From: Alphaproteobacteria bacterium UBA1185
Lineage (GTDB): Bacteria > Pseudomonadota > Alphaproteobacteria > Rs-D84
Direction: 5' to 3'
Length of the DNA stretch: 64,000 bases
Assembly: GCA_002310415.1 (NCBI GenBank)
Contig: DBYN01000006.1
Location: forward strand, 154,565-218,564
The notes beneath the pieces are model-generated. The model saw only the letters and a program-made list of their open reading frames with translations. It searched no databases and was not told the DNA's origin. Shown here in pieces: positions 35,275 through 43,559 of the stretch. Position 1 is the stretch's first letter, and the number at the start of each line of letters is the position of its first letter. The position numbers were made by a program, and so were the translations under genes.

Positions 35275-36570
35275 ATGAAAAAAAGTATGTTAGTTTTGAT
35301 TTTACTTGGATTAATGCCTGTTTTGGGTGCTGGTGCGTATGAATATCGTAAAGAGAGCAGTCAATACACCACCACTCGTTCGTCAGATGGGTATAAAAAA
35401 TCTAGGACGGTTCGTAAAACTGGCAGTTATCACAATACTATAAATAATAATTTTTATTATGCTCAGCCATCACAACCATCGAATCGTTCACAGATGTATC
35501 GTGATTATGACAGCGAATATGTTTCGCGTGAAACGATTGTTGAAAAAGATGATTCTGTTTTGCAAATAAGACCGGAACGTTCATCCCAGGAACGTAAATA
35601 TTTCTTGGCACATCCATTTTTTCAACCGTTGCAATCAAGATTTGGTTCTGTAACAGATGTGTCATATGCTAATGGAAATATGGATTTCAGTTTGTTGGAT
35701 GGTACGTTTTATGATTTGGATAAACCTGTGCCGGCTGGGTATAATGATGCCGTTTATGCAGATATAAATCTTAAAGGCGAATCATCAGTAAAACAGTTCT
35801 TGGTCAAAGAAGATTTCAGTTTGGGTTTATCTGATACTTTGGCATTGATTTTGATGGCTCAATATGATTCTACCAAGGTTAAATTTGATAATTGGTCCAG
35901 TGGTGAAAAGGGTAGTTCGTCTTCTAATTCTGGCGTAAATGTGTTTGGTATTGGTTTACAAAATCGCTTTATTGATAATGGCGAATGGATTGCGATGTTT
36001 TCTGGATTTTTCCAACATCAAAAAGATACAGCTAATTCATTTATCTTTGATATCAAGGGTGGATACAAGATTGACAGAACAACTGTATACGGATTGGCAC
36101 GTTTGGGATATTCAAATTTGACAGATGGTGATGTATATGGTGTCAAAGTTGATGAAGACACTGGTGATTATATGGTTTTAACCTATAAAACAGATGTTAA
36201 AGATATCGTAAATGTAGAAGTTGGTGGTGGTGTATTCTCTGTTTTGGATAAAACCATTTATCTTGGGGGTGAAATGCTTTACGGACACTATGATTGGCAC
36301 AATCAATTGAATATCAAAGGTACAATTGGTTTCCAACCACGTGAATCTTTTGCATTAAGTTTATACGCATCTACTTCATTGTATGATTCAGCCAAGGGAA
36401 AAATAAATCAATTTATCAATTACGATGTAGATCCTGCACCAGTTGTTGACCCAGAAACAGAAAACGTACTGACAAATCCAGATAGCAGATTGGGGTACAC
36501 TGTTGGCAATTACGAAGTCAACAAATATAATGAATGGAAAATAGGTGTTCAACTTATTGCATATTTCTAA
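35275..36570 (+). CDS. Putative outer-membrane beta-barrel protein (signal peptide, C-terminal aromatic residue)
   Basis: Signal 'MKKSMLVLILLGLMPVLGAGA'. Alternating hydrophobic beta strands. Ends in '...IGVQLIAYF'. Confidence 0.45.
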   Translation: MKKSMLVLILLGLMPVLGAGAYEYRKESSQYTTTRSSDGYKKSRTVRKTGSYHNTINNNFYYAQPSQPSNRSQMYRDYDSEYVSRETIVEKDDSVLQIRPERSSQERKYFLAHPFFQPLQSRFGSVTDVSYANGNMDFSLLDGTFYDLDKPVPAGYNDAVYADINLKGESSVKQFLVKEDFSLGLSDTLALILMAQYDSTKVKFDNWSSGEKGSSSSNSGVNVFGIGLQNRFIDNGEWIAMFSGFFQHQKDTANSFIFDIKGGYKIDRTTVYGLARLGYSNLTDGDVYGVKVDEDTGDYMVLTYKTDVKDIVNVEVGGGVFSVLDKTIYLGGEMLYGHYDWHNQLNIKGTIGFQPRESFALSLYASTSLYDSAKGKINQFINYDVDPAPVVDPETENVLTNPDSRLGYTVGNYEVNKYNEWKIGVQLIAYF

Positions 36571-36605
36571 TCAGTTGTCTTGTGTATAACTGTGGTGTTG
36601 GTGTG

Positions 36606-37478
36606 ATGAAAAAGTATTTGTTGGCATTAATTGGTTTGTTCGTTGTAAATGTTGCGCTGGCGCAAGGTGTAGTGTTGTCTGATACTTATGTATCAGATGA
36701 TGCTTTGACGGAAGAACCTGTTGTCGAAGAACCTTTTGTTGCGCCGCAATCGTCGAAGTCTGTTGTATCACAAAAATCTGGTGGGTATGTTGAACAACAG
36801 GTGAAACCTGTATTTCGTGGTGTTGTATCAAATGATTTATCTGACCCCTTGTTTATGTTACCAGATGATAGATTTTTATCTGATACGTTTGTTAATTTCA
36901 TAGACAGTAAATTACGTCTGGGGCAGTATATTGGATATGGTATAAATAACAATTTTGTTATTCATGCCAGTATGCTTTATCAGATAGATTTTACACGAAA
37001 TCATGAAAATGGTTTTTCCAGTACTGAATTTGGTGGAATATATCGTATGAACCATGGAACGGGCCAATCGCATATAATTTCAGATGTTTTGTTTGGGTTG
37101 AAGTTATGGGGTTCATCGCATGTTAGAACACCAGAATATGCAGATTCGTCTTATTATGCAGGATTGCGTTTTGGACGTCAATTTGCAGGTTTAACATTGG
37201 CGGGAACCGTAAAATCTACGTGGGTATTCCAAGATGAACGTGGATTATCTTATATTGATTTTATTCCAGAGGCGTATTTTAGATTTCAATATGATTGGCG
37301 TGCAGGTTTGGGATTTGATTTCAGGAAATCTACGAACAGATTTTTATTGCCAAATCAAGGGTGGTTAAATTTGAAACTGTTACGTCAGTATGGCAATACT
37401 CAATGGGTTGGACGGTTTGATTATGAATTTGAATCCGAAGAAGTTCAAGTTGGTATGAATATCAAGATATTGTTTTAA
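36606..37478 (+). CDS. Putative outer-membrane beta-barrel protein (second of tandem pair)
   Basis: Signal 'MKKYLLALIGLFVVNVALAQG'. Ends in '...VGMNIKILF'. Start set at the internal MKKYLL. Confidence 0.45.
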   Translation: MKKYLLALIGLFVVNVALAQGVVLSDTYVSDDALTEEPVVEEPFVAPQSSKSVVSQKSGGYVEQQVKPVFRGVVSNDLSDPLFMLPDDRFLSDTFVNFIDSKLRLGQYIGYGINNNFVIHASMLYQIDFTRNHENGFSSTEFGGIYRMNHGTGQSHIISDVLFGLKLWGSSHVRTPEYADSSYYAGLRFGRQFAGLTLAGTVKSTWVFQDERGLSYIDFIPEAYFRFQYDWRAGLGFDFRKSTNRFLLPNQGWLNLKLLRQYGNTQWVGRFDYEFESEEVQVGMNIKILF

Positions 37479-37484
37479 TTTATA

Positions 37485-38741
37485 TTATTTTTTTCTAAAA
37501 CTGTTCCAATATTCCAGACGTTTTTTTATTTCGCGTTCAAAACCTCTTTCGATTGGTTGGTATAGATTGACACGTTTCATACCATCTGGAAAACAATTTT
37601 GTCCACTGCAACCGCTTTCTGTTTCTGGGTCATAAACATAGCCATCGCTGTATCCTAGATTTTTCATCATTTTTGTTGGTGCGTTTAATATGTTTTTGGG
37701 TGGCATTAAACTGCCTGTGTCGCGCGCAAGTTTATATGATGCGGTTTGTGCTTTGTATGTAGAAATACTTTTGGGTGATGTTGATAAATATATAACCAAT
37801 TCTGTAATGGCGATATCGCCTTCGGGTGAACCCATACGTTCGTATATTTGCCACGCAGATAAAGCAATTTGCATAGCGTTCGGGTCGGCCAAACCGATAT
37901 CTTCCATCGCAAAACGTGTTAGACGACGTAGAATATATCGTGGGTCTTGACCAGATGTTATCATGCGTGCAACCCAATATAGTGCGGCATCTGTATCTGA
38001 TGCGCGTAGTGATTTATGTACAGCAGATATTAAATTGTAATGTTCATCGCCAGATTTGTCGGACATAGGTGCGCGTTTTTGAATTGTTTTGTCCAATGTT
38101 TCTGGTGTTAAATCTTTTTTAAATTTTACGCCAGAAATATATTCAACGGTATTTAATAAAAATCTTGCATCACCATCCGCCATTTGTGCAAGATGTATTT
38201 TTGCATCATCTGTCAAAGGTAATTTTTTATCTAAAAATTTTTCTGCACGTTCAATCAATGTCAATAAATCCGTCGTAGACAGCGGTTTTAATACGCCAAT
38301 ATGACAACGTGATAATAACGCGTTGTTCAAATTAAAACTGGGGTTTTCTGTTGTAGCACCGACAAATACAACTGTCCCATCTTCAAGATAAGGTAACAAT
38401 GTATCTTGTTGTGTTTTATTAAATCGATGAATTTCATCAATAAACAACAATGTATTGCGCCCAATATCGTGATTCATACGTGCGCTGTCCATCGCTTTTT
38501 TTATATCAGCAGTTCCAGAAAATACGGCAGACATTGGAACAAAATCCATATCTATGGAATTAGCCAATGCGCGTGCAATTGTGGTCTTTCCGCATCCGGG
38601 CGGGCCCCATAATAATAAATTAGACAGATTGCCATTTTCAACCATACGGCGAACAATACCGTTTTCACCAAGTAAATCAGTTTGACCAACAATTTCATCA
38701 ATCGTTTTTGGACGCATTAAATCGGCAAGTGGTCTGGTCAT
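37485..38741 (-). CDS. rarA: Replication-associated recombination protein A (RarA/MgsA AAA+ ATPase)
   Basis: 'LLLWGPPGCGKTTIARALA', 'FIDEIHRFNKTQQD', and a MgsA C-terminal helical domain. Confidence 0.85.
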   Translation of the reverse strand: MTRPLADLMRPKTIDEIVGQTDLLGENGIVRRMVENGNLSNLLLWGPPGCGKTTIARALANSIDMDFVPMSAVFSGTADIKKAMDSARMNHDIGRNTLLFIDEIHRFNKTQQDTLLPYLEDGTVVFVGATTENPSFNLNNALLSRCHIGVLKPLSTTDLLTLIERAEKFLDKKLPLTDDAKIHLAQMADGDARFLLNTVEYISGVKFKKDLTPETLDKTIQKRAPMSDKSGDEHYNLISAVHKSLRASDTDAALYWVARMITSGQDPRYILRRLTRFAMEDIGLADPNAMQIALSAWQIYERMGSPEGDIAITELVIYLSTSPKSISTYKAQTASYKLARDTGSLMPPKNILNAPTKMMKNLGYSDGYVYDPETESGCSGQNCFPDGMKRVNLYQPIERGFEREIKKRLEYWNSFRKK

Positions 38742-38838
38742 TTTTCTTTCTTTATTATCCTTTTATGATATAATAATCATATTAAATAATTAAAGATTTA
38801 TCAAGACGGAAAACAAAATTGAACAAGGTAGGTTTATT

Positions 38839-40866
38839 ATGCGTGTTTATGTAAATTACGAAAATAAAACATGGAAAAAATACGATATTGATTTTGAAAA
38901 AATTGCGTCAGCGGCGGTTTTGGATGCTGATAAAGATGCAGAAGTTTCTGTTACTTTGGTAAATGATAAAAAAATTCAACGGTTAAACAAACAATATCGT
39001 GGTGTGGATAAACCAACGAATGTATTGTCTTTCGAATTGGGGGATGATTTATTATTGGGTGATATATTTATATCTTTGGATACTGTTGTCAAAGAAGCCC
39101 ATGCTGCATGTATTTCTGTGGAAGAACACACTGCACATATGATTGTTCATGGTATGTTACATTTACAGGGGTACGATCATTTGAATGATAAAGATGCTAT
39201 AATTATGGAACAGAAAGAAATTAAAATATTAAAACAATTAGGTTATAAAAACCCGTATGAAGAATCGAATAATGATTATCCACAATGTACAGAAGAATCT
39301 TGTTGTCCTGGTAGATGGATAACTAAATTAAAATCAATTAAAATCAGGCAAAATAGTTTTTGGCAATATTTTTTGGCATCCGTATTTGGAATTATTTGTT
39401 CTTTTGGTTTTGCTCCGTTTAATTTATGGATGTTGTCTTTATTTGCTATTGGTGGTATGTATTATTTAATAACCAGAAAGACCGGAAATATTAGTTTTAT
39501 GAAATCTTGGTTTGTGGCATTTCCGTTTGGGGCTTTTTATGGTATGTCTATGTTTTGGTGGGTTTTTCATTCGGTTTATGTTGTACCAGAATTAACAGAT
39601 AAATTTGCAATATGGGTTATTCCTGGATTGTTGGGCATAGGTTTGATTTGTGGTTTTATATTATCGTTACCTTTTGCTGTGATTCGTTATATTTCAAGCA
39701 AACCAGCGAATAGGGCGATTTTATTTGCTGTATCCTGGACGTTAGTGTTATGGTTGCGCGAATGGTTTTTAACTGGTTTTCCATGGAATCCAATATCTAA
39801 TATAACTATGTCTATGCCAATGGTTATAAATTCTATCGCTTTGTGGGGATCGTTGGGTTTGTCTTTTGTTATAGTTGGGTTGATTGCAAGTTTTATAGAA
39901 TTATTACGTTACAGAAAGTCAAAGTCTTGCATTGTTGTGTTTGTAGTGTATGCAGTATTGTTTTTAATCGGGTGTATTTATGGTTTGCATAATATGCATA
40001 AATCACAACCAAATAATATGGAAAATATCCCGATGATAAGGATTATACAGCCCGCTAAGTCTGCTGAATACAAAAGATTAAGGGTTGAACATAGTATTAG
40101 AGAAGTTGTACAGAAAAGATACCAAGATTTGATTGATTGGGCAAAAGAAGATAGAACCGTAGAACCAGATATAATAGTTTATCCAGAAACTGTCTATCCG
40201 TATTGGGTTGCGGAACCTGAATTTCCTTTGTCACGAATATTAAATACAAATGTTATTATGGGCGTTCTTACTTATAATGCCGGTAAAAAGTACAATTCTA
40301 TGGTCATAGCAGATAAAACAGGTGAAATTCAACATTTGTATAACAAAGCACATTTGGTACCGTTTGGGGAATACAGACCTTTTGGGGATATAATTCCAAC
40401 ACCTGGACAATTAAGTCCTGGAAGCCAAGCAAAAAAAATAATGTCTATAAATACCAAATATGGTGATTTTAAGGTTGCTCCGGCTATTTGTTATGAAATA
40501 ATTTTTTCTGATTCTTTGGTGCCACGTGGCGGAACACCTGATGCTGTTGTAAATATAACTAATGACACATGGTTTGGGCAAACACCAGGCGTATATCAGC
40601 ATTTAGATATGGTCAGACGTTACGCAATTGAATCAGGTTTGCCGGTTATTCGTGCAAATTATTCTGGGATAAGTGCTTTTGTTATGCCAGACGGCAATGT
40701 TGAATCAATGTTGTATGTTGGTCAAACGGGGCATTTAGACGGTTTTGTATGGGGAGCTCATAATACTGTATATAGAATACTGGGGCGTGATATGTGGGTG
40801 ATAATTATTTTGTTGTTTTCAATAATTGTTTTAAAATCCATATCCGTATTTCAGAAGAAAGATTAG
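38839..40866 (+). CDS. Fusion ORF: YbeY endoribonuclease domain (aa 1-150) + apolipoprotein N-acyltransferase Lnt (aa ~180-675)
   Basis: YbeY Zn motif 'HGMLHLQGYDH'. Then the Lnt TM region ('FGFAPFNLWMLSLFA'), CN-hydrolase E/K/C ('PETVYPYW', 'YNKAHLVPFGEY', 'APAICYEIIF'). One continuous frame with no in-frame Met at the domain junction. Confidence 0.7.
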   Translation: MRVYVNYENKTWKKYDIDFEKIASAAVLDADKDAEVSVTLVNDKKIQRLNKQYRGVDKPTNVLSFELGDDLLLGDIFISLDTVVKEAHAACISVEEHTAHMIVHGMLHLQGYDHLNDKDAIIMEQKEIKILKQLGYKNPYEESNNDYPQCTEESCCPGRWITKLKSIKIRQNSFWQYFLASVFGIICSFGFAPFNLWMLSLFAIGGMYYLITRKTGNISFMKSWFVAFPFGAFYGMSMFWWVFHSVYVVPELTDKFAIWVIPGLLGIGLICGFILSLPFAVIRYISSKPANRAILFAVSWTLVLWLREWFLTGFPWNPISNITMSMPMVINSIALWGSLGLSFVIVGLIASFIELLRYRKSKSCIVVFVVYAVLFLIGCIYGLHNMHKSQPNNMENIPMIRIIQPAKSAEYKRLRVEHSIREVVQKRYQDLIDWAKEDRTVEPDIIVYPETVYPYWVAEPEFPLSRILNTNVIMGVLTYNAGKKYNSMVIADKTGEIQHLYNKAHLVPFGEYRPFGDIIPTPGQLSPGSQAKKIMSINTKYGDFKVAPAICYEIIFSDSLVPRGGTPDAVVNITNDTWFGQTPGVYQHLDMVRRYAIESGLPVIRANYSGISAFVMPDGNVESMLYVGQTGHLDGFVWGAHNTVYRILGRDMWVIIILLFSIIVLKSISVFQKKD

Positions 40867-41017
40867 ATTTGGGCTCACGTTTATCATCGATATTTTTAAT
40901 TAGTTGTGCAACAGGTATGTTATGCTTTTTGGCGATTGCTTTTAATACATCAAAAAATTCTTGTTCCAAAGAGATGCTTGTTTGATGTCCGGATAAAGAT
41001 ATTGATATTTTTTGCAT
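40805..41017 (-). CDS. Ribbon-helix-helix (CopG/Arc-like) small protein
   Basis: 'ISISLSGHQTSISLEQEFFDVLKAIAKKHNIPVAQLIKNID' matches the conserved alphaproteobacterial RHH family 'SVTLSGHRTSISLEPAFW..L..IA'. Overlaps the lnt 3' end convergently by 62 nt. Confidence 0.55.
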   Translation of the reverse strand: MQKISISLSGHQTSISLEQEFFDVLKAIAKKHNIPVAQLIKNIDDKREPKSNLSSEIRIWILKQLLKTTK

Positions 41018-41018
41018 T

Positions 41019-41453
41019 TTATATTTTCCCAACAATTAAACAATCCAACATAGCGCGATACGGATCGTCATATTTTCGCAATACAGATAAATTCAAATTA
41101 TCCAACATAAAGCAAGTACCAAATGCATCTGCAGCAAACCAAAATAAATCGTTTCTGCCAAATACAGTTTTTCCAATTAAATTTTTGTTTCCAATTATAT
41201 CCTTGTTTATTGCAATTATTGATGGCAAAGGATATTTTATACCGCGTTGAATTTCGGTTGAACCAAATATACATGCAGAGCCCAATGTTACAGCGGAACA
41301 ATTATGATATAAATCTATTAAAAATGTCGGTAACATAGCAGCGCGTATGTCTTTTAAAATTGTGTTAGCAATATTTATTTTGTTTGCATCACTGGCGGGA
41401 AAAATTTGTGCGCCTTTGGATTGTAACAAAGATATAAATTCTTGGGTTGTCAT
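41019..41453 (-). CDS. Hypothetical protein, SUKH/SMI1-KNR4-like (putative immunity-protein fold)
   Basis: 144 aa. 'LPTFLIDLYHNCSAVTLGSACIFG' and 'LFWFAADAFGTCFMLD' resemble the SUKH-1 'LP.dY..FL..yNGG...G' and 'iPfA.DggGNyyc.D' blocks. The start directly abuts the upstream stop (TAAATG). Confidence 0.35.
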   Translation of the reverse strand: MTTQEFISLLQSKGAQIFPASDANKINIANTILKDIRAAMLPTFLIDLYHNCSAVTLGSACIFGSTEIQRGIKYPLPSIIAINKDIIGNKNLIGKTVFGRNDLFWFAADAFGTCFMLDNLNLSVLRKYDDPYRAMLDCLIVGKI

Positions 41454-41957
41454 TTATTCATTTCCTCGTCCAGATGCAAAAAACGCAGACTGAGATAATC
41501 TGTCCGAAGTTGAATTTCCCCCAGCACCGCCATTTGCAAGATTTGTTGAAATATAAATTTTTTTCGCGGGGTTTGGTAAAAATACCGTTTTTGCATTACT
41601 TTGCTCAATGATAAATCTGTCCAGATTATGACTTTGTGGAAAGGTTAAACACATAAACATATTATCAATATCAATCTTTCCACCCCATATCAACGGAATT
41701 CTGAATCGCAAAGATGTATTTTCTGGTAATTGTTTACCCATTATTAAATTCATAAATTCTTCTTTTGGTAAATTCAAAAAAGCGATTTCTTCAAAAGAAT
41801 CTGTCAGGGAAGCCATAAATTCTCGTCGCAAGGCAGAATATAATTTAAACCAATCTGCGTTTATTATGCAACGATTTGGCGTGTATTCCATCACTGGCAT
41901 ATCGTCCATTCCGAGTGCTGTTAACCGTTCAAGCGCAGAATGTTTTGTTAATTGCAT
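41454..41957 (-). CDS. Hypothetical protein (no recognisable family)
   Basis: 167 aa, soluble, Gly-rich tail 'NLANGGAGGNSTS'. Translationally coupled to the downstream SUKH-like gene. Confidence 0.4.
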   Translation of the reverse strand: MQLTKHSALERLTALGMDDMPVMEYTPNRCIINADWFKLYSALRREFMASLTDSFEEIAFLNLPKEEFMNLIMGKQLPENTSLRFRIPLIWGGKIDIDNMFMCLTFPQSHNLDRFIIEQSNAKTVFLPNPAKKIYISTNLANGGAGGNSTSDRLSQSAFFASGRGNE

Positions 41958-41969
41958 TCGTGTTAATCC

Positions 41970-42845
41970 TTAAATATTTTTAGCATATGTAATGATTGTA
42001 TCAATATAATCAGAATATGCATCAAAATTTTCTTGTTCTGATTCGTCTGTTGGTGGATTTGGGTTGTTGGTTATAAATTCTTTTAATTCATCTAGGTTAT
42101 GGAATATCAAAACATTGTCATCGGAAATATATATTTGTTTTGTATCTAAAACAAAAGCAGAAATTGTTATAGGAATGTCTTCTAAAGTTTCTTTGAAAAT
42201 GTCGCTTAACTTATCAATAGATTTCTTAAATCTTTCAATATCACAATCCACAGCACCAACCCAAACTGTCTCGTTATTTCCAATTGCAAATAAATTTGTA
42301 GTAAATCCAGAAATTGTTAATTTTGGTTTAACTTTATAACCTGCGTTTGCAAATATAGTAGATAACTCGGAATCATACAAAGTTGTTGGTTGTGTATTTG
42401 TTGGTTTGTTTTGTGCCAAAGATTGTTCTGATTGGTGTTGTGCAGCAATATTTGCGATGTTTTTGGGTAAATTTAATTTTGGCGGTTGATTTAGGTGTAC
42501 AAAGTTATTTGGACCAGGATATGTAGTATCTGTTTGTTTCTGTTTTCCAAGTTGTGTGGTATTCAAGATAGATGTATTTTCAGTTTTTGTAACAATGGTT
42601 TTGCCAAAACGTGGTTTAAAAATCATATATAGTCCAAATATAGTAATAAATACTGCAACACCAATAGAAACATAAAATGTTTTGTCAATTGGTGTATGTG
42701 AAACCTGTAACTTTGCCAATTCATCCCAATGTTCGGCATAAAAAATATTAAAACTGAATCGCACATTTAACCAAAACGAAAGTCCAAGCAAAACAGATGT
42801 GCAAAGCAATATAGATGATAAAATTTTTTCTATGTATTTGTTCAT
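41970..42845 (-). CDS. Hypothetical membrane protein (2 N-terminal TM helices, Q/T/N/P-rich linker, C-terminal alpha/beta domain, acidic tail)
   Basis: TM1 'ILSSILLCTSVLLGLSFWL', TM2 'FYVSIGVAVFITIFGLYMIF'. No known motif. Confidence 0.4.
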   Translation of the reverse strand: MNKYIEKILSSILLCTSVLLGLSFWLNVRFSFNIFYAEHWDELAKLQVSHTPIDKTFYVSIGVAVFITIFGLYMIFKPRFGKTIVTKTENTSILNTTQLGKQKQTDTTYPGPNNFVHLNQPPKLNLPKNIANIAAQHQSEQSLAQNKPTNTQPTTLYDSELSTIFANAGYKVKPKLTISGFTTNLFAIGNNETVWVGAVDCDIERFKKSIDKLSDIFKETLEDIPITISAFVLDTKQIYISDDNVLIFHNLDELKEFITNNPNPPTDESEQENFDAYSDYIDTIITYAKNI

Positions 42846-42887
42846 TTTATTTTTATTGTATCACATTTTATGATAAACTGACAACAA

Positions 42888-43559
42888 ATGATTGAAGCAA
42901 ATGAAATTTTTTCAGATTTTGATAAACGAATCGCTTTTTGGTGCGATAATGTCGCAGATACTGCTGAGTTGGCTGATTTATCAAATAATTTAATAGAAAA
43001 TAAAATTGATTTAATATCAGTTGTGCCAAATGCGGTTTATTTTTTGTGGACATGTTTGGAAAAACAAAATGTTAAAATTTTACCAAGATATTATTTCGCA
43101 CCACTGCAAAAAAATATGGATACATATGTGTCAGAATTGGTTAAAAATATCACTAATGTTTTCAAAAAGGGTGCAACAGGTGTTCAAATTTTTTTGAAAA
43201 TGCGGGATTTAGAACGTTTTACAGACACTATAAAGTTTGTTCGTAATGATTTGTTTTTTGAACATGTGTTATGTGTGGGCTTTGATATAAATGATATTAA
43301 TTTTGAAGATTGGGATTTAGTTTTTCAAAAATTGCATGATTTATGTGCGGATGCGCTTGTGTTAACATTAAATGAAGATATGGGAAATCGGTCTGATTTT
43401 GTGGGACGTGTTTACGGTATGTTGCAAAAATGGGATTTTGGCGGAGAATTACACTTTAAATTAAATAACGACTACGAACGTATGGACCAAGTAATCCGCT
43501 TGATTGAATCAGAAAAAAATGAATTATCTGATAAATTACGCTTTTTCTTGGATTATTAA
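42888..43559 (+). CDS. Hypothetical protein (possible TIM-barrel, DeoC-like by weak resemblance only)
   Basis: 223 aa. 'IDLISVVPNAVYFL' weakly recalls a DeoC beta-strand. No catalytic Lys motif identified. Confidence 0.3.
   Translation: MIEANEIFSDFDKRIAFWCDNVADTAELADLSNNLIENKIDLISVVPNAVYFLWTCLEKQNVKILPRYYFAPLQKNMDTYVSELVKNITNVFKKGATGVQIFLKMRDLERFTDTIKFVRNDLFFEHVLCVGFDINDINFEDWDLVFQKLHDLCADALVLTLNEDMGNRSDFVGRVYGMLQKWDFGGELHFKLNNDYERMDQVIRLIESEKNELSDKLRFFLDY

What the first reader, a model, noticed from the sequence alone, without database searches (positions are those of the whole stretch)
38839..40866. Single ORF fusing YbeY (rRNA maturation endoribonuclease) to apolipoprotein N-acyltransferase Lnt
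ybeY and lnt are normally separate members of one operon, often as ybeY-corC/tlyC-lnt in alphaproteobacteria. Here a 675-aa continuous frame has the full YbeY Zn site 'HGMLHLQGYDH' followed, via a ~30-aa Cys-containing linker ('CTEESCCPGRW'), by a complete Lnt (8 TM + CN-hydrolase E/K/C). There is no corC and no in-frame ATG/GTG start in the linker. Lnt's N-terminus is cytoplasmic, so the fusion is topologically feasible. It is either a real bifunctional fusion, a non-canonical internal start, or an assembly frameshift that removed a stop.
Basis: seen in the sequence. Interest (0 to 1): 0.6.

Follow-up and report, generated by a model that had tools for sequence, protein, structure and literature searches.

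The report
Conserved YbeY–Lnt fusion protein
In a group of small-genome gut bacteria (Candidatus Enterousia and relatives), the ribosome-maturation enzyme YbeY and the membrane lipoprotein-acylating enzyme Lnt are permanently joined into one protein; this is a real, undescribed but mechanistically modest variant of two well-known enzymes.

Summary
Window 38839..40866 (+) is one 675-codon ORF. It encodes a complete YbeY domain (aa 1-141), a 31-aa linker containing CTEESCCPG, and a complete Lnt.

It is not an assembly artefact. The same uninterrupted frame occurs in all 80 species-level genomes retrieved (50-71% identity). It also occurs in more than 270 protein clusters, down to about 30% identity. 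These come from Candidatus Enterousia / order Rs-D84 and related uncultured Alphaproteobacteria with genomes of about 0.75-1 Mb.

- All catalytic residues of both enzymes are invariant in the 81 aligned sequences.
- Linker length takes 34 different values (4-76 aa), all in frame.
- No conserved internal start exists.

Relatives show a likely route to the fusion:
- The canonical operon is miaB-phoH-ybeY-corC-lnt.
- One relative has ybeY and lnt adjacent with an 8-nt stop/start overlap and no corC.
- A deep-branching fused member has miaB directly followed by fused ybeY-lnt.

The most likely product is a YbeY domain tethered to the cytoplasmic face of the inner membrane by Lnt's first helix, with the two enzymes working independently. 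The clade-specific three-cysteine linker motif remains unexplained.

Public annotation calls these proteins only "apolipoprotein N-acyltransferase", and I found no paper describing the fusion. I rate it a new variant of a known kind, of moderate interest.

The parts
38825..38832 (+). Shine-Dalgarno-like AAGGTAGG upstream of the ATG at 38839
   Evidence: Read directly from the sequence. The consensus promoter scan of the 97-nt intergenic region was uninformative.
38839..40866 (+). Single ybeY-lnt fusion ORF, 675 aa plus stop
   Evidence: The identical protein is encoded on 3 contigs, including a bovine gut metagenome.
38839..39261 (+). YbeY domain (aa 1-141), ending at LGYKNPYE, which matches the E. 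coli YbeY C-terminus LGYEDPY
   Evidence: Pfam and NCBIfam hits. Alignment to PDB 1xm5. AlphaFold2 pLDDT about 90. Mean identity to the 80 relatives is 0.70, the highest of any region.
39148..39180 (+). Zinc site H104-x3-H108-x5-H114 (E. coli H114/H118/H124). Further functional residues are R54 (38998-39000), T60/N61 (39016-39021) and D75 (39061-39063).
   Evidence: The three His and R54 are invariant in 81/81 sequences. T60, N61 and D75 are invariant in alignment A2. The roles of the E. coli equivalents come from bioRxiv 10.64898/2026.08.26.747336.
39262..39354 (+). Linker (aa 142-172). It comprises an acidic stretch, the Cys motif C150-x4-C155-C156-P-G (39286-39312), then the basic juxtamembrane segment RWITKLKSIKIRQN (39313-39354).
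   Evidence: pLDDT 49-67, with a short predicted helix at 159-166. Among the 81 genomes, C150 is kept in 68, C155 in 69 and C156 in 67. Within class A linkers these three columns are 92-100% Cys, and they are absent from class B linkers.
39355..40023 (+). Lnt membrane domain, TM1-TM7 (aa 173-395)
   Evidence: LNT_N hit. Alignment to Lnt structures 5n6m and 5xhq starts at TM1. The model has seven long helices at 174-388. Basic residues cluster in the predicted cytoplasmic loops, read from the sequence.
40024..40758 (+). Periplasmic nitrilase-type domain of Lnt (aa 396-640), with catalytic E450 (40186-40188), K503 (40345-40347) and C551 (40489-40491)
   Evidence: CN_hydrolase and TIGR00546 hits. 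The triad is invariant in 81/81 sequences. K503 and C551 are mapped to E. coli K335 and C387 through the 5xhq alignment. E450 = E267 was placed by motif, not by that alignment: query YPET matches PET in the P. aeruginosa Lnt alignment (5n6m), whereas the E. coli row is misaligned there.
40759..40866 (+). TM8, the short basic cytoplasmic tail (QKKD) and the stop codon
   Evidence: Predicted helix at 650-670.
40805..41035 (-). Convergent ribbon-helix-helix (RHH_4) gene overlapping the 3' end of ybeY-lnt by 62 nt. This is context, not part of the fusion.
   Evidence: Pfam RHH_4, E = 9e-22. The same overlap is seen in L001, L002 and the distant relative L084.
37485..38741 (-). Divergently transcribed rarA/mgsA-type AAA ATPase gene upstream. 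Because of it, ybeY-lnt has its own 97-nt upstream region and is not part of a phoH/corC operon.
   Evidence: Precomputed Pfam hits for L001 and the ORF list.

Best explanation
This is a real, lineage-wide gene fusion. It encodes one bifunctional inner-membrane protein.

The N-terminal YbeY domain is a zinc hydrolase needed for 30S subunit maturation. It sits in the cytoplasm. A flexible 31-aa linker ties it to the first transmembrane helix of a complete apolipoprotein N-acyltransferase (Lnt). Lnt's nitrilase domain faces the periplasm and N-acylates lipoproteins.

The fusion arose in place from the ancestral miaB-phoH-ybeY-corC-lnt operon during genome reduction. Loss of corC left ybeY and lnt abutting with overlapping stop and start codons. 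A small indel then joined the frames. The fused state has since been held by selection across a deep clade of uncultured gut Alphaproteobacteria.

The two active sites lie on opposite sides of the membrane. They therefore most likely work independently. The fusion's effects would be obligatory co-expression at 1:1 and a permanent membrane anchor for YbeY.

Shown here: the continuous ORF, its conservation, the intact catalytic residues, the frame-preserving linker indels, the synteny series and the predicted two-domain architecture. Inferred: that one polypeptide persists in the cell, the membrane topology, the independence of the two activities, and the order of the evolutionary steps.
For: - Domain hits are well above the curated cut-offs.
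- All 80 species-level genomes retrieved (191 tblastn-confirmed stretches; 50-71% identity) have one stop-free frame spanning the YbeY zinc motif and Lnt.
- More than 270 collected protein clusters are fused, some only about 30-35% identical to the window protein.
- YbeY H104/H108/H114/R54 and Lnt E450/K503/C551 are invariant in 81/81 sequences. The YbeY part is the best conserved region.
- Linker length takes 34 values between 4 and 76 aa, and every one is in frame.
- Only 6 of 81 genomes have a Shine-Dalgarno-like in-frame start in the linker, and these sit at different positions.
- The AlphaFold2 model has mean pLDDT 86 and pTM 0.73. It shows two confident domains, a low-confidence linker and eight TM helices.
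- Lnt structures align from TM1 onward.
- The evolutionary series is: L085/L086, miaB-phoH-ybeY-corC-lnt; L090, ybeY stop and lnt start overlapping by 8 nt with no corC; L087/L088, miaB directly followed by fused ybeY-lnt.
- The window and the distant relative L084 share ftsK ... ybeY-lnt / RHH_4 synteny.
- No phoH, corC or miaB lies in the window or in the flanks of the 80 fused loci.
- Rs-D84 / Enterousia genomes are about 0.75-1.0 Mb (PMC12306168).
Against: - There is no protein-level evidence. Cleavage in the poorly conserved, low-confidence linker cannot be excluded.
- Only 64 kb of this genome was seen, so a second stand-alone ybeY or lnt elsewhere is not ruled out.
- A few stand-alone Lnt sequences nest among the fused ones in a rough neighbour-joining tree. 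One fused protein (P0136) pairs with a stand-alone one. The history therefore includes fissions or more than one fusion.
- The conserved three-cysteine motif suggests the linker may be more than a passive tether. The simple model does not explain it.
Confidence: 0.8

Rival explanations
1. The fused polypeptide is only a precursor. It is cut in the linker after membrane insertion, releasing soluble YbeY and leaving a normal Lnt.
For: The linker is the least conserved region, with mean identity 0.36. It is predicted with low confidence, pLDDT 49-67. That is typical of protease-accessible segments.
Against: No recognisable cleavage motif is conserved. Some fused relatives have linkers of only 4-13 aa, which leaves little room for a processing site. 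No dedicated protease gene lies nearby.
Confidence: 0.08
2. Lnt is also, or mainly, translated on its own from an internal non-canonical start. The long ORF would then overstate the fusion.
For: An in-frame TTG sits at codon 179 in the window. Scattered ATG/GTG/TTG codons occur in the linker or TM1 of 75 of 81 relatives. A weak promoter-like match lies at 39316-39344.
Against: These codons are not positionally conserved. Only 6 of 81 have a Shine-Dalgarno-like sequence upstream, and most lie inside TM1, so they would truncate it. Promoter-like matches are fewer than in shuffled sequence. If Lnt were translated separately, nothing would keep 34 different linker lengths in frame.
Confidence: 0.05
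3. It is an assembly or sequencing artefact, or a pseudogene, in which a frameshift removed the ybeY stop codon.
For: A few short or chimeric database entries exist: P0134, P0141 and P0144.
Against: The identical protein comes from three independent assemblies. The fusion is present in 80 of 80 related genomes retrieved and in hundreds of clusters. All catalytic residues are invariant.
Confidence: 0.01
4. The fusion is functionally coupled. The juxtamembrane cysteine cluster binds metal or senses redox state and so regulates the YbeY zinc site. It might, for example, act as an in-cis cysteine switch, linking ribosome maturation to envelope or metal status.
For: C150, C155 and C156 are 92-100% conserved within the long-linker clade. 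Some relatives expand the motif into metallothionein-like runs of up to nine Cys. A 2026 preprint reports that Cys121 of uS11 displaces His124 from the YbeY zinc in a cysteine-switch-like step (10.64898/2026.08.26.747345).
Against: The motif is absent from the 53 short-linker fused proteins and from 7 of the 80 close genomes, so it is not needed for the fusion to work. No fourth Cys or His partner co-varies with it. The model gives no confident fold for it.
Confidence: 0.06

Closest known systems
E. coli ybeZ(phoH)-ybeY-ybeX(corC)-lnt operon and its alphaproteobacterial version miaB-phoH-ybeY-corC-lnt
   Same: It has the same two enzymes in the same order and orientation. The canonical arrangement was seen directly in L085/L086 and is described for E. 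coli in bioRxiv 10.1101/2023.03.20.533420.
   Different: Here phoH and corC are gone from the locus. ybeY and lnt share one reading frame with no stop or start between them.
YbeY-Era fusion proteins (Clostridia, Selenomonadales, Thermoleophilum album)
   Same: YbeY is the N-terminal domain of a two-domain protein. It is fused to the product of a gene it is often linked with (review PMC10582724).
   Different: In that case the partner is a soluble 30S assembly GTPase that physically works with YbeY. Here the partner is a polytopic membrane enzyme of an unrelated pathway whose active site is in the periplasm.
Stand-alone Lnt of E. coli and P. aeruginosa (PDB 5n6h, 5xhq, 5vrg, 5n6m)
   Same: It has eight TM helices, a periplasmic nitrilase domain and an E-K-C triad. 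The alignment runs from TM1 to the end of the nitrilase domain.
   Different: Identity is only about 30% (against an alphaproteobacterial Lnt). The short cytoplasmic N-terminus is replaced by about 170 residues of YbeY plus linker.
Mycobacterial Ppm1 (Lnt-like domain fused to polyprenol-monophosphomannose synthase) - recalled from memory, not tested here
   Same: It is a precedent for Lnt-family membrane domains occurring in natural fusions with a cytoplasm-facing enzyme.
   Different: The partner is different, it sits at the other end of the protein, and it belongs to a functionally related envelope pathway.
Membrane-anchored RNA-processing enzymes (RNase Y by an N-terminal TM helix, RNase E by an amphipathic helix) - established knowledge, not tested here
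   Same: An RNA- or ribosome-directed enzyme is held at the cytoplasmic face of the membrane.
   Different: Those anchors are dedicated short segments. Here the anchor is a whole second enzyme.

Membership tests
YbeY (PF02130 / TIGR00043, UPF0054) | Profile score above the curated cut-off | tested here: met
   Pfam 123 bits against a cut-off of 25. TIGR00043 130.6 bits against 45.
YbeY (PF02130 / TIGR00043, UPF0054) | Zinc-binding H-x3-H-x5-H motif (E. coli H114/H118/H124) | tested here: met
   H104/H108/H114, aligned to PDB 1xm5. Invariant in 81/81 sequences.
YbeY (PF02130 / TIGR00043, UPF0054) | Substrate-contacting residues (E. coli R59, T65, N66, D85) | tested here: met
   R54, T60, N61 and D75 are invariant. 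Their roles are taken from bioRxiv 10.64898/2026.08.26.747336.
YbeY (PF02130 / TIGR00043, UPF0054) | Zinc-dependent activity (16S rRNA 3' processing and/or uS11 isoaspartyl formation) | not testable with these tools
   Needs biochemistry or complementation.
Apolipoprotein N-acyltransferase Lnt (TIGR00546; PF20154 + PF00795) | Equivalog profile score above the cut-off | tested here: met
   228.4 bits against a cut-off of 132.9. LNT_N and CN_hydrolase Pfam hits.
Apolipoprotein N-acyltransferase Lnt (TIGR00546; PF20154 + PF00795) | Catalytic triad Glu-Lys-Cys (E. coli E267/K335/C387) | tested here: met
   E450/K503/C551 are invariant in 81/81 sequences. K503 and C551 are mapped through the 5xhq alignment. 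E450 is mapped by the conserved PET motif, using the 5n6m alignment.
Apolipoprotein N-acyltransferase Lnt (TIGR00546; PF20154 + PF00795) | Eight TM helices, with the nitrilase domain between TM7 and TM8 and the N-terminus in the cytoplasm | tested here: met
   The AlphaFold2 model has seven long helices at 174-388, the nitrilase domain at 396-640 and a helix at 650-670. The positive-inside pattern is read from the sequence. The orientation itself is inferred from the solved homologues.
Apolipoprotein N-acyltransferase Lnt (TIGR00546; PF20154 + PF00795) | N-acylation of diacylated apolipoproteins | not testable with these tools
   Needs an Lnt-depletion complementation or an in vitro assay.
Stable translational gene fusion (as opposed to adjacent genes or an artefact) | One frame with no stop, conserved in independent genomes, with frame-preserving indels at the junction | tested here: met
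   80 of 80 genomes, 277 fused proteins with 34 linker lengths, and 3 independent contigs carrying the identical protein.
Stable translational gene fusion (as opposed to adjacent genes or an artefact) | A single polypeptide detected in cells | not testable with these tools
   No proteomic data are available.

The most novel reading that the evidence does not exclude
The fusion may be more than a by-product of genome shrinkage. The conserved juxtamembrane C-x4-CC-P-G cluster could be a metal or redox sensing element that gates the zinc site of the tethered YbeY domain. It would act as an in-cis counterpart of the uS11 Cys121 "cysteine switch" just reported for YbeY. Ribosomal small-subunit maturation would then be tied to the state of the cell envelope or to metal supply. 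That would also give a functional reason for the long-puzzling linkage of ybeY with corC and lnt.
Probability: 0.06. Interest if true: 0.75.

Novelty: new variant of a known kind. Interest (0 to 1): 0.4.

Why it matters
- **A natural test of where YbeY can work.** YbeY is nearly universal in bacteria and its molecular job is still debated. The older view is an RNase for the 16S 3' end. Two 2026 preprints instead describe it as the enzyme that installs an isoaspartate in ribosomal protein uS11. A whole clade here keeps YbeY permanently bolted to the inner membrane, sometimes through a linker of fewer than 15 residues. This shows that its essential function is compatible with membrane tethering and with 1:1 expression with Lnt. 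That constrains models of where and on what YbeY acts.
- **A documented route to fusion.** The locus shows step by step how a conserved operon collapses into a fusion during genome reduction.
- **An annotation gap.** Hundreds of database entries labelled only "apolipoprotein N-acyltransferase" also carry the cell's YbeY. Gene-content surveys could therefore wrongly score these genomes as lacking ybeY.
- **Limits.** Beyond these points it is a combination of two well-understood enzymes, with no sign of new chemistry.

Tried and rejected
- **Promoter and terminator scan of 38500-41300.** It gave fewer promoter-like sites than shuffled sequence and was uninformative.
- **tRNA and Rfam scans of the whole window.** Both found nothing.
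- **tblastn for PhoH, CorC, MiaB and uS11.** None was found in the window or in the flanks of the fused loci. The location of corC in this genome, if it exists at all, is therefore unknown.
- **Gene upstream of the stand-alone Lnt P0362 (L083).** I checked whether it was ybeY. It is not, and it has no Pfam hit.
- **A fourth Cys or His ligand co-varying with the linker cysteines.** None was found. Only weak enrichment of two TM cysteines appeared.
- **Literature searches.** YbeY + Lnt/apolipoprotein N-acyltransferase + fusion/fused returned nothing on this architecture. The YbeY review with DOI 10.1042/BST20200669 is not held.
- **Triple YbeY-CorC-Lnt fusions.** I considered whether the 750-850-aa relatives were of this type. 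They are not. Their extra length comes from repeated in-frame inserts.
- **Neighbour-joining tree of Lnt parts.** It is rough, using a BLOSUM distance with no support values. I used it only to note that the history is not strictly a single fusion with no reversals.
Full report
**1. The observation**

Window 38839..40866 (+) is a single 675-codon ORF. It starts at an ATG preceded by AAGGTAGG.

Pfam finds YbeY at aa 17-134, LNT_N at aa 184-347 and CN_hydrolase at aa 464-621. The NCBIfam equivalog models for YbeY and for Lnt both score far above their cut-offs.

Alignment to solved structures maps these residues:

| Residue(s) in window protein | E. coli equivalent | Reference structure |
|---|---|---|
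| H104 / H108 / H114 | zinc ligands H114 / H118 / H124 | 1xm5 |
| K503, C551 | K335, C387 | 5xhq |
| E450 (placed by the PET motif) | E267 | 5n6m |

YbeY ends at LGYKNPYE (aa 134-141), which matches the natural C-terminus of E. coli YbeY. Lnt homology starts at about aa 173-176, the beginning of TM1. The 31 residues between them contain CTEESCCPG followed by the basic stretch RWITKLKSIKIRQN.

The only in-frame potential start between the domains is a TTG at codon 179. It lies inside TM1 and has no Shine-Dalgarno sequence. The window holds no corC, phoH or miaB, and no second ybeY or lnt.

**2. Is it real?**

- The identical protein is encoded on three independent contigs, one from a bovine gut metagenome.
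- A word-indexed search returned 839 relatives. The best 120 are all 664-700 aa with all three domains.
- A scan of one genome per GTDB species gave 191 confirmed stretches. In all 80 loci kept (50-71% identity), one stop-free frame spans the YbeY zinc motif and Lnt.
- An exhaustive HMMER search of 50%-identity representatives, plus two further searches, extended the fused family to proteins only about 30-35% identical.
- In total 277 collected proteins are fused. Their linkers take 34 different lengths from 4 to 76 aa, all in frame.
- In the 81-sequence alignment, the zinc histidines, R54 and the Lnt triad are invariant. The YbeY part is the most conserved region at 0.70 mean identity, against 0.54-0.58 for Lnt and 0.36 for the linker.

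An assembly artefact or pseudogene is excluded.

**3. Who carries it**

The genomes are metagenome-assembled genomes (MAGs) named Candidatus Enterousia, "Alphaproteobacteria bacterium" or "Rickettsiales bacterium". They come from rumen, horse, chicken, human and termite guts.

Enterousia belongs to the uncultured order Rs-D84. Its members have genomes of about 0.75-1.0 Mb (PMC12306168). One of that paper's MAGs is locus L018.

**4. How it arose**

| Stage | Locus | Arrangement |
|---|---|---|
| Canonical operon | L085 / L086 (ordinary alphaproteobacterium) | miaB-phoH-ybeY-corC-lnt, with overlapping stops and starts |
| Adjacent, unfused | L090 | ybeY ends ...LKIENPYE*; the lnt ATG lies 8 nt before that stop (ATGAATAA); no corC |
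| Fused, operon compacted | L087 / L088 (deep-branching fused member P0135) | miaB directly followed, with a 4-nt overlap, by fused ybeY-lnt |
| Fused, relocated | window and L084 (about 51% identical) | ftsK ... ybeY-lnt, with a convergent RHH_4 gene overlapping the 3' end |

In L090 one small indel would fuse the frames. Its Lnt is 46% identical to that of the fused protein P0136.

The simplest reading is operon compaction during genome reduction, followed by frame fusion. A rough tree of the Lnt halves shows one large fused clade with a few stand-alone sequences nested inside it. It also pairs P0136 with a stand-alone Lnt. Some fissions, or a second independent fusion, are therefore likely. 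I do not regard the number of events as settled.

**5. How it most likely works**

An AlphaFold2 model built from 60 fused sequences has mean pLDDT 86 and pTM 0.73. It shows:
- a confident YbeY domain;
- a low-confidence linker (pLDDT 49-67) with a short helix at aa 159-166;
- seven TM helices at aa 174-388;
- the nitrilase domain at aa 396-640;
- an eighth TM helix at aa 650-670.

Lysines and arginines cluster in the linker, in the even-numbered loops and in the C-terminal tail. Lnt homologues of known structure have both termini in the cytoplasm. The YbeY domain must therefore be cytoplasmic and the Lnt active site periplasmic (inference).

The two catalytic centres are on opposite sides of the membrane, so direct chemical coupling is implausible. 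The fusion most likely yields a membrane-anchored YbeY made in fixed 1:1 ratio with Lnt.

Tethering is compatible with what is known of YbeY. It acts with the 30S subunit, Era and uS11 (PMC10582724). Two August 2026 preprints identify it as the zinc-dependent enzyme that forms isoaspartate in uS11. The residues they single out (E. coli T65, N66, D85, H114) are invariant here as T60, N61, D75 and H104.

Post-translational cleavage in the linker, or some internal initiation, cannot be excluded without protein data. There is no conserved signal for either. Frame preservation across many linker indels argues against independent translation of Lnt.

**6. The linker**

There are two linker classes.
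- **Long linker.** The window's clade has a linker of about 32-35 aa with C-x4-5-C-C-P-G. The three Cys columns are 92-100% conserved among 208 such proteins. A few relatives use C-x3-C-x2-C instead. Others expand the motif into metallothionein-like runs of up to nine cysteines.
- **Short linker.** The more distant fused proteins (53 collected) have Lys-rich linkers of 4-29 aa (mostly 10-25) without cysteines.

The motif is therefore a later addition that the fusion does not need. It is probably a small metal-binding element, but no fourth ligand co-varies with it and the model does not fold it. Its role is unexplained. A cysteine-switch-like interplay with the YbeY zinc is a low-probability idea. 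It is suggested by the uS11 Cys121 mechanism reported in 10.64898/2026.08.26.747345.

**7. Comparison with what is known, and novelty**

- Each half passes every sequence-level membership test for its family.
- Known relatives of the architecture are the unfused ybeZYX-lnt operon and YbeY-Era fusions.
- From memory, two further parallels are the Lnt-Ppm fusion of mycobacteria and membrane-anchored RNases.
- I found no paper mentioning a YbeY-Lnt fusion.
- NCBI and JGI name these proteins only "apolipoprotein N-acyltransferase", although precomputed Pfam hits list all three domains.

It is thus a previously undescribed variant of known enzymes. It has a clear origin and is of moderate interest, chiefly as a natural experiment on where YbeY can work and as an annotation trap.

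Noticed in passing
window 35275-37478 (+): Two tandem ORFs (431 and 314 aa) have signal-peptide-like N-termini and C-terminal ...AYF / ...ILF endings typical of outer-membrane beta-barrels. Neither has a Pfam hit. Together with rarA they lie between ftsK and ybeY-lnt, whereas in the distant relative L084 ftsK directly precedes ybeY-lnt.
   Followed up: partly
window 40805-41035 (-) against the lnt end at 40866: A ribbon-helix-helix (RHH_4) gene converges on ybeY-lnt and overlaps its last 62 nt. The same overlap is kept in L084, whose fusion protein is only about 51% identical. This suggests a conserved antisense or termination arrangement.
   Followed up: partly
window 41019-43559: Four consecutive genes (144, 167, 291 and 223 aa) have no Pfam hit. 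Genes of similar sizes occupy the same positions in L084, so they look like conserved lineage-specific proteins of unknown function.
   Followed up: partly
window 1-64000: ARAGORN finds no tRNA gene in 64 kb. Rfam finds no match at gathering thresholds. Overall G+C is 35%.
   Followed up: yes
related proteins P0356, P0310, P0300, P0304, P0306 (not in the window): The long (750-850 aa) fused homologues carry repeated in-frame inserts. For example, GTRNKEKGISCDCAGGNN.SYR. occurs three times in P0356, at aa 206, 281 and 382. The inserts sit in the linker and in Lnt loops. They resemble Rickettsia-type palindromic elements that insert into coding sequence.
   Followed up: partly
L075 (CAVGNU010000003.1): This record is titled Bacteroides fragilis. 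Its fusion protein has the same length (670 aa) and the same distinctive HGTLHLMGYDH motif as those of the "Rickettsiales"/UBA6376 MAGs L069-L073. The bin is probably mislabelled or contaminated.
   Followed up: no
P0134, P0141, P0144 (representative library): These are short or chimeric versions of the fusion. One is a 318-aa protein that switches to unrelated sequence after TM3. One is a 219-aa frameshifted form. One is a 164-aa form ending just after the Cys motif. They are probably contig ends or assembly errors, but rare natural fission variants cannot be ruled out.
   Followed up: no
L083 and protein P0133: Stand-alone Lnt proteins about 40% identical to the window's Lnt half nest among fused sequences in a rough tree. 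In L083 the upstream gene is not ybeY. This hints at secondary fission or relocation in some lineages.
   Followed up: partly
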